Positions 8,619-8,997 of a DNA stretch of 64,000 nt are shown here, piece by piece; the stretch's first letter is position 1; every line of letters begins with the position of its first letter. The notes beneath the pieces are model-generated. The model had not been told where the DNA came from. It worked only from the letters and a program-made list of their open reading frames with translations, and searched no databases. A program made the translations under genes and the position numbers. This DNA is from an uncultured Alphaproteobacteria bacterium. GTDB lineage: Bacteria > Pseudomonadota > Alphaproteobacteria > Rhizobiales > Beijerinckiaceae. Location: assembly GCA_963832175.1 (NCBI GenBank), contig CAWHTC010000003.1, forward strand, positions 886,080 to 950,079, given 5' to 3'.

Positions 8619-8997
8619 CTCCTCCGCGGTAAGTCCGGGCATTTTGTTCAACATGCGGATCCCGAGCAATTTGGACCGGCAGCCGAAGAACTGTTCGACC
8701 GGGTCATGCAGCTAACCGACAATGCCGGCGACCAACGAACACCGCGCCTTGAATTTACTCGCCGCGCGCGATCCGGCTATTTACGCCAAGGCGGCGAAAG
8801 AATTTGCGCGCGACCTTTCGCTGACCGCAGTAGAAGTGCGCCTCTCGCCCTTTAGCGGAACACGGAAGGTGGTGGACGCGATCTTCGCCTTCACCAACCG
8901 CAATAGCGATTTCACCGAGAAGTTTTTCGTGCGCGTCGATGTGACCGAGGAGTTTCCGTTCCTGGTGACCAAGCTGTCGCCGTATTACGACCGGTGA
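8619..8997 (+). pseudogene. 5'-truncated, frameshifted PatA/PatG-type C-terminal (cyanobactin protease DUF, PatG_C-like) domain
   Basis: AEELFDRVMQLTDNAG / TNEHRALNLLAARDPAIYAKAA...EKFFVRVDVTEEFPFLVTKLSPYYDR recognised from memory as the PatG_C-like terminus; 2-bp slip at about 8729. Confidence 0.7.

What the first reader, a model, noticed from the sequence alone, without database searches (positions are those of the whole stretch)
8619..8997. Orphan PatA/PatG C-terminal DUF fragment embedded among the precursors
The fragment resembles the C-terminal domain of cyanobactin maturation proteases and their stand-alone relatives (..ELFDRVMQLTDNAG[AT]NEHRALN...VRVDVTEEFPFLVTKLSPYYDR). It lacks its N-terminus and protease domain and has a 2-bp slip at about 8729. 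Precursor 4 starts 21 bp after its stop, as in an operon. The function of this DUF is unknown even in cyanobactins, so its link to Cys-rich precursors is a clue.
Basis: partly seen in the sequence, partly recalled or inferred. Interest (0 to 1): 0.7.

Follow-up and report, generated by a model that had tools for sequence, protein, structure and literature searches.

The report
Dead PatG-DUF gene stub in peptide array
The fragment is a real but broken tail end of a small, highly conserved partner protein of a cyanobactin-type leader protease. Such stubs travel with cysteine-rich peptide genes in a widespread three-gene peptide system for which I found no description.

Summary
Window 8649-8997 encodes a complete Pfam PatG_C domain (E 6.6e-32) once a 2-nt deletion at 8730/8731 is bridged, and precursor 4 starts 21 nt after its stop.

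It is not a piece of a fused S8-PatG protease. The closest relatives (75-84% identical) are about 315-aa stand-alone PatG_D+PatG_C proteins. In 67 of 70 scorable loci this gene follows a separate PatA-like S8 protease gene, usually with a small CxxC protein gene between them. Arrays of precursors follow, each with an invariant (M/I)PGFxAExS leader and a hypervariable, Cys-rich core.

The window has only residues 200-315 of that protein, with no usable start codon and with two invariant tyrosines replaced. An independent cave metagenome shows the same truncation and frameshift.

There is no S8, CxxC or PatG_D sequence anywhere in the 64 kb. An IS5 element abuts precursor 1, and an 89-nt MITE-like insert splits precursor 4.

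3'-anchored stubs of this gene recur among precursors in at least 15 other loci. They almost always sit at native spacing from the next precursor.

The stub is therefore a recombination or duplication scar in a decaying or orphan precursor array. The intact system is the interesting part.

The parts
8649..8729 (+). First piece of the stub. It matches residues 200-226 of the 315-aa stand-alone PatG_D+PatG_C protein (QHADPEQFGPAAEELFDRVMQLTDNAG). No ATG, GTG or TTG precedes it in frame back to the TGA at 8616-8618.
   Evidence: tblastn with the L011 protein, 78% identity; alignment A1; translations.
8730..8731 (+). Frameshift site. Two bases of the invariant Ala codon (DNAG-A-T) are missing.
   Evidence: Sequence and frames; invariant column A126; the same state in an independent run, contig 8584-8742 with 0 gaps.
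8731..8997 (+). Second piece of the stub. It matches residues 228-315 plus the native stop (TNEHRALN...TEEFPFLVTKLSPYYDR*). It lies within the 91-aa ORF 8722-8997.
   Evidence: Pfam PatG_C E 1.5e-24 for the ORF alone. 75% identity to L011. Five of 45 columns that are at least 95% conserved are broken, including the invariant Y236L and Y241D.
8998..9018 (+). Native-type 21-nt spacer with a Shine-Dalgarno GGAGG at 9008-9012, ahead of precursor 4.
   Evidence: Sequence. The distance from stub to next leader is the same as for full-length genes. Related metagenome contigs diverge right after the stop, but each keeps an RBS (loose ends).
9019..9538 (+). Precursor 4 (leader MNMPGFDAEASLYRTSKTYRG...IMPQ). 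It is broken by a 1-nt shorter G run at 9154-9156 and by an 89-nt insert at 9316-9404. Undoing both gives a 143-aa Cys-rich ORF that ends at 9538.
   Evidence: ORF list. A soil RNA contig carries an extra G after 9153, and a soil DNA contig skips 9316-9404. Reconstruction.
9316..9404 (.). MITE-like palindromic insert inside precursor 4. It has CTAG flanks and AGTGCACTGAC terminal inverted repeats.
   Evidence: Fold of -38.9 kcal/mol and a single copy in the window. About 76x contig depth in run X1 against 2-4x for neighbouring sequence, and absent from an X4 contig.
7775..7843 (+). Second, shorter stub of the same gene. It matches residues 292-308 (FFVRCDLTEEFPFLVP) and then goes out of frame. 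Precursor 2 follows 19 nt after its stop.
   Evidence: tblastn; 80% direct repeat with 8922-8966; sequence.
7389..7757 (+). Precursor 1 (MSVPGFNADASAYRTS..., 13 Cys). It starts 46 nt after the IS5 right end.
   Evidence: A 55%-identical homologue is the third precursor of an intact locus, L084.
7863..8114 (+). Precursor 2 (MSKTNLPGFTAGASLYETTSSYRS...). The Cys-containing continuation lies in another frame, so this is either a frameshift or a homopolymer error.
8285..8521 (+). Precursor 3 (MKVPGFNADASLQRSTKTYRS...VPAIPTCDTC...), apparently intact.
   Evidence: Run X1 holds it at more than 95% identity with a 6-nt deletion at 8523.
9698..9904 (+). Leaderless Cys-rich core (poly-Gly followed by a CxxxC-rich tail), preceded in frame by ...GIAVVPQL but with no PGF leader. 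It is probably a 5'-truncated precursor.
   Evidence: It resembles the core of an L061 precursor.
9927..10172 (+). Precursor 6, a member of the one conserved precursor subfamily (...PQLxFxxDPDLGAYWRCRxNGGSDLICRFFGGLPPFTIGG...), intact.
   Evidence: DNA homologues at 80-85% in L006, L007, L015, L031, L034, L038 and L051.
6384..7342 (+). IS5-family element that bounds the array on the left. It has 20-nt inverted repeats and a two-ORF transposase. Its flanking triplets differ (TGA/TCA).
   Evidence: Inverted repeats; a plasmid match annotated as IS5 family transposase. A second copy, 97.4% identical, lies at 42186-43126 with matching TTA/TTA flanks.

Best explanation
The fragment is a non-functional 3' remnant (residues 200-315 of about 315) of the stand-alone PatG_D+PatG_C ('DUF') gene of a compact mobile peptide system.

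The intact system has a PatA-like S8 leader protease, usually a small CxxC protein, the DUF protein, and an array of precursor genes. Each precursor has a conserved roughly 35-40-aa leader ((M/I)PGFxAExSLY...Y...hxPQ) and a hypervariable core with an even number of cysteines.

In these arrays the unit that gets duplicated or exchanged is [3' end of the DUF gene + about 25-nt spacer with RBS + precursor]. Truncated DUF tails are therefore left in front of downstream precursors (inferred from the recurrent pattern).

In this genome (Methylocella-like, Beijerinckiaceae) the array lies between ilvC and pgk with no core genes within 64 kb. An IS5 copy with non-matching flanks sits where the core should be (inferred: IS-mediated loss). 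A MITE-like insert splits precursor 4. The stub has a fixed 2-nt deletion, no start codon and substitutions at invariant sites.

Shown here: the homology, the truncation, the frameshift, the recurrence of stubs and the gene order elsewhere.

Inferred: how the stub arose, and what the intact protein does. My best guess is that the intact protein is the non-catalytic partner of the S8 protease, a split PatA, acting during leader removal from disulfide-rich peptides.
For: PatG_C E 6.6e-32 with full domain coverage.

1245 close homologues were found, and the full-length genes are about 315 aa with PatG_D+PatG_C.

The order S8, small protein, DUF gene is colinear in nearly all 82 loci. It is split in 67 of 70 scorable loci. 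No other neighbouring gene is conserved.

The nearest solved relatives of the S8 are the N-terminal cyanobactin proteases PagA/PatA (E 8e-29, against 1e-17 for subtilisins). The DUF protein matches only the PatG-DUF structure 4UVQ.

The window has no S8, CxxC or PatG_D sequence.

Isolated 3'-anchored stubs of 15-95 aa, many with stops, occur in at least 15 other loci. Sixteen of the 18 stubs, counting the two in the window, are followed by a leader at 32-93 nt, against a median of 49 nt for full genes.

Between close relatives, colinearity breaks just after the DUF stop and the leader start (L007/L015, L073/L080, L028/L057).

Relaxed constraint: 5 of 45 conserved columns are broken, including two invariant Tyr, more than in 81 of 83 intact genes.

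An independent run shares the junction and the deletion.

IS5 boundaries and mismatched flanks. MITE in precursor 4.

Precursor statistics: P, F, A and S of the leader are invariant; Cys makes up 0.5% of leaders and 11.7% of cores; 115 of 132 precursors have an even Cys count.
Against: The stub is still 75-78% identical to intact genes, and its last 91 codons are an open frame with an ATG. Decay is therefore recent, or some constraint remains.

The rest of the genome could not be searched, so an intact core locus that uses these precursors in trans is not excluded.

The assembly has at least one clear homopolymer error (pgk). Some of the 'decay' of precursors 2 and 4 may therefore be artefact, although the MITE and the stub frameshift are not.

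The origin of the stubs is mixed. In 7 loci the resident gene is the best nucleotide match, which points to local duplication. In 8 loci it is not. No single mechanism is proven.

Synonymous-site conservation is flat along the gene, so there is no sign of a specially homogenised 3' arm.

The only experimental data on a DUF of this kind found no binding to the PatE precursor (PMC4259220). The partner-of-protease role is a guess.
Confidence: 0.78

Rival explanations
1. The stubs are selected recombination handles. The ilvC-pgk island would then be a store of silent precursor cassettes. Homologous exchange between a stub (plus the conserved leader 5' end) and the resident DUF gene of an intact locus elsewhere in the genome would swap which precursor sits in the expressed first position. 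This would be analogous to orphan toxin-immunity modules or pilS cassettes.
For: Stubs are always 3'-anchored and keep native spacing to the next precursor. Array differences between close relatives start exactly at the DUF stop and leader. In 8 loci the stub is closer to foreign DUF genes than to the resident one. A soil RNA contig joins pre4-like and pre1-like cassettes in a different order. Precursor 6 and probably precursors 1 and 3 are intact.
Against: No intact locus is known in this genome. Stub lengths vary from 15 to 116 codons, and many stubs are riddled with stops, as expected for neutral scars. No elevated synonymous conservation is seen at the 3' end. No dedicated recombinase is conserved nearby.
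Confidence: 0.15
2. The fragment is the tail of a fused S8-PatG_D-PatG_C protease, with the PatA architecture that the first reader pictured, whose protease part was deleted.
For: Fused forms exist: 3 cyanobacterial loci and about 15 of the top 150 cluster representatives, at 560-650 aa. The best amino-acid match of the stub (78%) is to the cyanobacterial locus L052.
Against: L052 itself is split. 67 of 70 loci, and all proteobacterial loci, are split. Identity to split genes is equally high at 77%.
Confidence: 0.07
3. The 91-aa ORF 8722-8997 is expressed as a functional mini PatG_C protein.
For: The frame is open and starts with an ATG. It covers profile positions 27-115 of the domain. L073 has a comparable uninterrupted tail ORF.
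Against: There is no Shine-Dalgarno before 8722. It lacks the first quarter of the domain and all of PatG_D. Invariant Y236 and Y241 are replaced. Comparable stubs elsewhere carry stops. The L073 tail is a recent copy, 93% identical to the resident gene.
Confidence: 0.05
4. The fragment is an assembly artefact (chimeric join or indel error) in a long-read MAG.
For: The contig has a homopolymer frameshift in pgk (A9 at 11283-11291) and a TGA at codon 4 of gap.
Against: Independent contigs from another run reproduce 8333-8603 and 8584-8742 without gaps across the junction and the 2-nt deletion.
Confidence: 0.02

Closest known systems
PatA / PagA N-terminal cyanobactin proteases with their C-terminal DUF (PatG-DUF structure 4UVQ; Pfam PatG_D PF18047 + PatG_C PF18065)
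   Same: The same two DUF domains are present. The S8 protease of the intact loci is closest to PagA/PatA among solved structures. The protease and DUF act next to genes for leader-bearing precursor peptides. A few cyanobacterial members are fused exactly like PatA.
   Different: In most members the protease and DUF are separate genes, with a small CxxC protein gene between them. There is one protease per locus, so there is no PatG-type macrocyclase. No heterocyclase, oxidase or prenyltransferase is present. The precursors are 60-250 aa with an unrelated leader and Cys-rich cores, and they match no Pfam or NCBIfam precursor model. All scores fall far below the TIGR03895 cut-off. The window copy is only a broken tail.
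Orphan or displaced cassettes of polymorphic toxin loci (CdiA-CT/CdiI, Rhs) and silent pilS cassettes (comparison from general knowledge, not tested here)
   Same: A variable module is preceded by a short piece of the conserved upstream sequence, repeated along an array. Arrays differ between close strains from that conserved piece onward.
   Different: Here the conserved piece belongs to a different gene (the DUF gene) and not to the variable gene itself. No immunity genes are evident. Actual exchange has not been shown.
Ordinary IS-associated pseudogene remnants
   Same: The stub is truncated, frameshifted and lacks a start, and it sits next to an IS5 copy and a MITE-like insert.
   Different: The truncation is not random. 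The same gene is truncated from the 5' side, keeping its native 3' end and spacer, in many unrelated genomes.

Membership tests
Pfam PF18065 PatG_C | Profile HMM score above the gathering cut-off (25.9 bits) | tested here: met
   110.4 bits, E 6.6e-32, profile positions 4-115 of 115 for the frame-joined reading. 86.7 bits for the 91-aa ORF alone.
Pfam PF18065 PatG_C | Encoded as part of an intact, translatable gene | tested here: not met
   2-nt deletion at 8730/8731. No in-frame start between the TGA at 8616-8618 and 8706. No SD before 8722.
PatA/PatG family cyanobactin maturation protease (TIGR03895) | Score at or above the curated cut-off (421 bits), meaning S8 domain plus DUF in one protein | tested here: not met
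   14.4 bits for the stub. Intact relatives score 105 bits (S8) and 26 bits (DUF protein). No S8 sequence in the window.
Cyanobactin biosynthetic gene cluster | PatE-type precursor with protease recognition sequences | tested here: not met
   The window precursors and the L011 precursors hit no Pfam or NCBIfam precursor family. Their leader consensus (M/I)PGFxAExSLY is different.
Cyanobactin biosynthetic gene cluster | Second, PatG-type macrocyclase protease and tailoring enzymes (heterocyclase, prenyltransferase) | tested here: not met
   There is one S8 per locus, and no other gene family is conserved across 82 loci.
Unnamed split PatA-like system (S8 + small CxxC + PatG_D/C protein + PGF-leader Cys-rich precursors) | S8 protease gene and full-length DUF gene upstream of the precursors | tested here: not met
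   Both are absent from the 64-kb window. The rest of the genome could not be searched.
Unnamed split PatA-like system (S8 + small CxxC + PatG_D/C protein + PGF-leader Cys-rich precursors) | Precursors with the invariant P-x-F-x-A-x-x-S leader, placed 27-71 nt after the DUF stop | tested here: met
   Five leaders in the window, at 7389, 7863, 8285, 9019 and 9927. The leader Pro codon lies 34 nt after the last aligned codon of the long stub and 56 nt after that of the short stub (8994 and 7825). The range for most full genes is 27-71 nt.
Silent or orphan cassette arrays (functional analogy) | An expressed master locus in the same genome, and demonstrable exchange with it | not testable with these tools
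   Only 64 kb of the genome is available.

The most novel reading that the evidence does not exclude
The 3' DUF-gene stubs are not just scars. They would be the upstream homology arms of a cassette-exchange mechanism that diversifies which Cys-rich peptide is expressed in a very widespread, horizontally mobile PatA-like system. This ilvC-pgk island would be a silent cassette store serving an intact locus elsewhere in the genome.
Probability: 0.15. Interest if true: 0.75.

Novelty: new variant of a known kind. Interest (0 to 1): 0.5.

Why it matters
The stub itself is dead DNA. It points, however, to a compact system present in at least 303 species-level genomes. These span Proteobacteria, Nitrospirota, Acidobacteriota, Planctomycetota, Chloroflexota, Cyanobacteria and other phyla.

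In this system the cyanobactin 'DUF', whose role has been open since the 2014 structure, is a separate protein. It is extremely conserved, at 65-95% identity across phyla. It always sits beside a PatA-like protease and hypervariable disulfide-type peptides.

This arrangement makes the DUF question directly testable, by deleting or pulling down a single small protein. It also exposes a large pool of ribosomal Cys-rich peptides for which I found no description.

The recurrent stubs additionally record how such precursor arrays are built and reshuffled.

Tried and rejected
- **Structure prediction.** An AlphaFold2 model of P0008 with the 13-sequence alignment was too poor to use (pLDDT 46), so no fold search was run.
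- **Finding the same junction elsewhere.** An exact-match search for the junction 24-mer in JGI metagenomes found nothing.
- **Synteny with a relative.** The ilvC neighbourhood of a Methylocella MAG (L083) is not syntenic with the window, so it says nothing about the ancestral state.
- **A homogenised recombination arm.** I tested whether the 3' end of the DUF gene is unusually conserved at synonymous sites. It is not (0.45-0.57 throughout). The high metagenome depth over 8852-9045 reflects amino-acid conservation only.
- **A last scrap upstream of precursor 1.** I tested whether the 46 nt between the IS5 end and precursor 1 derive from a DUF gene. The best local score equals the 95th percentile of shuffles. 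An exact 11-mer, CGGTAACCCTA, lies at the stop of L022. This is not significant.
- **RNA families and signals.** The Rfam scan of the window gave no hits. The promoter and terminator scan gave nothing above shuffles.
- **Defence-system reading.** PADLOC gave only generic subtilase hits for the S8 and nothing for the DUF or small protein.
- **Literature.** Six searches, including searches on the leader motif strings, found no paper on the system.

Full report
**1. What is in the sequence.**

Frame 3 reads ...LLRGKSGHFVQHADPEQFGPAAEELFDRVMQLTDNAG and then runs out of frame. Frame 1 continues (M)PATNEHRALN...VRVDVTEEFPFLVTKLSPYYDR* up to the TGA at 8995-8997.

Joined, the reading scores 110.4 bits (E 6.6e-32) against Pfam PatG_C and covers positions 4-115 of 115. 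The 91-aa ORF 8722-8997 alone gives E 1.5e-24. The hit against the NCBIfam PatA/PatG protease model is far below its cut-off (14 bits against 421).

The frame change is two missing bases of an invariant Ala codon (GCC GGC G|ACC at 8727-8733; alignment A1). Homology to intact relatives starts at 8649-8662, which is residue 200. No ATG, GTG or TTG lies in frame between the TGA at 8616-8618 and 8706. No Shine-Dalgarno precedes the ATG at 8722.

**2. Is it real or an assembly product?**

The contig is not error-free. pgk is frameshifted in an A9 run (11283-11291), and gap has a TGA at codon 4 (12452-12450).

The stub, however, is confirmed independently. A public cave-metagenome run holds low-depth contigs at 95-99% identity over 8333-8603 (with a 6-nt deletion at 8523), 8584-8742 (4 mismatches, no gaps) and 8812-8897. 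The truncation junction and the 2-nt deletion are therefore properties of a natural lineage.

**3. What the intact gene is.**

A search of 5.8 billion proteins gave 1245 hits. The best are 75-84% identical and carry PatG_D+PatG_C. A scan of one genome per GTDB species gave 303 loci, of which 80 were kept. They come from Nitrosomonas, Nitrosospira, Nitrotoga, Nitrospira, Methylobacter, Edaphobacter and other Acidobacteriota, Brocadia, Chloroflexota, Verrucomicrobia, Cyanobacteria and several Alphaproteobacteria.

In the isolate Methylobacter luteus (L011) the locus reads as follows:
- an S8 protease of 313 aa;
- a 72-aa protein (...LPGFITDEEIGLGDAIKRTTSYFGLKPCGGCEQRATALNRWLVF);
- a 315-aa PatG_D+PatG_C protein;
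- four genes that begin MN(M/I)PGF(T/N)AEASLY and continue into Cys-rich sequence.

The order S8, small protein, DUF gene is colinear in nearly all loci. In 67 of 70 scorable loci the protease and DUF are separate ORFs, and in about 62 of these the small gene lies between them. Three cyanobacterial loci have the protease and DUF fused like PatA.

Among 50%-identity cluster representatives, 1340 match at E of 1e-3 or better. Most of the top 150 are about 290-330 aa, and about 15 are 560-650 aa fusions.

No transporter, modifying enzyme or other gene is conserved around the core.

The nearest solved relatives of the S8 are the N-terminal cyanobactin proteases PagA/PatA (E 8e-29 to 4e-27), ahead of subtilisins (1e-17) and the PatG macrocyclase (3e-14). 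The DUF protein matches only 4UVQ, the PatG DUF. The small protein and the precursors belong to no Pfam, NCBIfam or PADLOC family.

**4. The precursors.**

Across the loci, 132 full-length precursors were collected (median 82 aa, range 60-252). They share a leader in which P, F, A and S of (M/I)-P-G-F-T-A-E-A-S-L-Y are invariant or nearly so. A Tyr lies 16 residues on (80%), and a hydrophobic-x-P-Q motif lies about 34 residues on. This motif fits strictly in 62 of 132, and as P-Q/A in 98.

Cysteine makes up 0.5% of leaders and 11.7% of cores. 115 of 132 precursors have an even number of Cys, which suggests intramolecular disulfides or another pairwise link.

One subfamily is conserved rather than hypervariable (...DPDLGAYWRCRxNGGSDLICRFFGGLPPFTIGG...). 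The window's precursor 6 (9927-10172) belongs to it.

**5. The window locus.**

Between ilvC (5116-6135, minus strand) and pgk lies a lower-GC island. It contains five leader-bearing genes, at 7389, 7863, 8285, 9019 and 9927, and one leaderless core at 9698-9904.

tblastn with the L011 core proteins finds no S8, no CxxC protein and no DUF residues 1-199 anywhere in the 64 kb. It finds only the long stub and a second, shorter stub (residues 292-308, at 7775-7825) that sits 19 nt before precursor 2.

An IS5-family element (6384-7342, 20-nt inverted repeats) ends 46 nt before precursor 1. Its flanking triplets are TGA and TCA. A second copy, 97% identical, at 42186-43126 has TTA on both sides. 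From general knowledge of IS5-group elements, which make TNA duplications, this is what an IS-mediated deletion or rearrangement would leave. This step is an inference.

Precursor 4, the gene directly after the stub, is itself broken in two ways. It has GGG where a related soil RNA contig has GGGG. It also carries an 89-nt palindromic, CTAG-flanked insert (9316-9404). That insert is absent from a related soil contig and has about 20-fold higher contig depth than its surroundings in the cave run. Removing the insert and adding the G yields a clean 143-aa Cys-rich ORF.

**6. Why a DUF tail sits among precursors.**

This is not peculiar to the window. Isolated tails of the DUF gene lie among or beside the precursors in at least 15 other loci. 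They are 15-95 codons long, they always run to or nearly to the native ...SPYYDR end, and they often contain stops. Sixteen of the 18 stubs, counting the two in the window, are followed by a leader at 32-93 nt. This is the same spacing as after full-length genes (median 49 nt).

In L078 a tail is fused behind a truncated precursor. In L073 and L045 the tails begin near residue 220-230, as the window's ORF does.

In seven loci the tail is most similar to the resident gene (up to 98%), which points to local duplication. In eight loci it is closer to genes of other species.

Pairs of related genomes are colinear through the core genes and stop being so just after the DUF stop and the start of the leader (L007/L015, L073/L080, L028/L057).

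The simplest reading is that precursor cassettes are duplicated, inserted or replaced together with their upstream flank. Breakpoints fall in the conserved DUF 3' end or in the leader, and this leaves tails as scars.

Synonymous-site identity is flat along the gene, so I see no evidence that the tails are maintained by selection or conversion.

**7. State of the stub.**

Against 83 intact genes, the stub differs at 5 of 45 columns that are at least 95% conserved. These include Y236L and Y241D, which are Tyr in 83 of 83. Only 2 intact genes reach 4 or more such differences. Together with the missing 199 residues, the deletion and the lack of a start, this marks a pseudogene of moderate age.

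**8. Function of the intact protein.**

This is not shown here. The DUF is still called a domain of unknown function in 2025 (PMC12639078). The only biochemical study found a novel fold, a Zn-dependent crystal dimer and no binding of PatE, whether unmodified or heterocyclised, by NMR (PMC4259220).

The DUF gene has an obligatory position beside a PatA-like protease, is occasionally fused to it, and is very highly conserved. I therefore favour a role as a non-catalytic partner of the protease during leader removal (about 0.4). I rate a leader-recognition element as less likely (about 0.2). Both are inferences.

**9. Taxon.**

The window's IlvC falls in a 90% cluster whose named members are Methylocella sp. 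MAGs. The IS matches elements on Methylosinus and Rhodovastum plasmids at 72-74%.

**10. Verdict.**

The fragment is an inert scar, and the value of the finding lies in the intact system it derives from, which I did not find described in six literature searches.

Noticed in passing
window 9316-9404: An 89-nt palindromic, CTAG-flanked MITE-like element lies inside precursor 4, with AGTGCACTGAC terminal inverted repeats. It occurs once in the window, has much higher contig depth than its neighbours in a cave metagenome, and is absent from a related soil contig.
   Followed up: partly
window 6384-7342 and 42186-43126: Two copies of an IS5-family element are 97.4% identical. The second has TTA/TTA flanks. 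The first, next to the precursor array, has TGA/TCA flanks, which suggests a rearrangement at that copy.
   Followed up: partly
window 11283-11291 (minus strand, pgk): pgk is frameshifted in a run of nine A. One A fewer restores ...[15 protein letters not shown].... This is probably a homopolymer consensus error of a long-read assembly.
   Followed up: partly
window 12450-12452 (minus strand, gap): The GAPDH gene reads [13 protein letters not shown]..., with a TGA at codon 4 where Arg or Lys is expected. It may be a sequencing error, a real nonsense mutation or something else. This is unresolved.
   Followed up: no
window 7775-7843: A second, much shorter stub of the same DUF gene (FFVRCDLTEEFPFLVP, then out of frame) lies directly ahead of precursor 2. 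It is 80% identical in DNA to 8922-8966.
   Followed up: yes
window 9927-10172; L006, L007, L010, L012, L014, L015, L038, L039, L049, L053, L069: One precursor subfamily (...DPDLGAYWRCRxNGGSDLICRFFGGLPPFTIGG...) is conserved across phyla, at 80-85% DNA identity, while all other cores are hypervariable. It may have a housekeeping or immunity-like role in the system.
   Followed up: partly
L011 5394-5609 and the equivalent gene in about 62 loci: The small protein between the S8 and DUF genes carries an LPGF motif like the precursor leaders, followed by GLGDxIxRxTxYxGxxPCGGCxxRxxxLNRWL. It matches no known family. It could be a leader mimic or a Zn/CxxC adaptor.
   Followed up: no
L028 vs L057 (Nitrosovibrio Nv6 / Nv4): The core genes are more diverged (80% nt) than both flanks (89-92%). 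This suggests replacement of the whole module at a fixed chromosomal site.
   Followed up: no
window 37657-37977: A 15-nt tandem repeat of about 21 copies (consensus CGGCGGCGGTCACTT, 83% matches) lies inside a long ORF (37644-39128).
   Followed up: no
window 7343-7388: The 46 nt between the IS5 end and precursor 1 contain CGGTAACCCTA. This is identical to the stop-codon region of the DUF gene in L022 (...GAC CGG TAA CCCTA). The match is not significant against shuffles, but it could be the last trace of a deleted DUF gene.
   Followed up: yes
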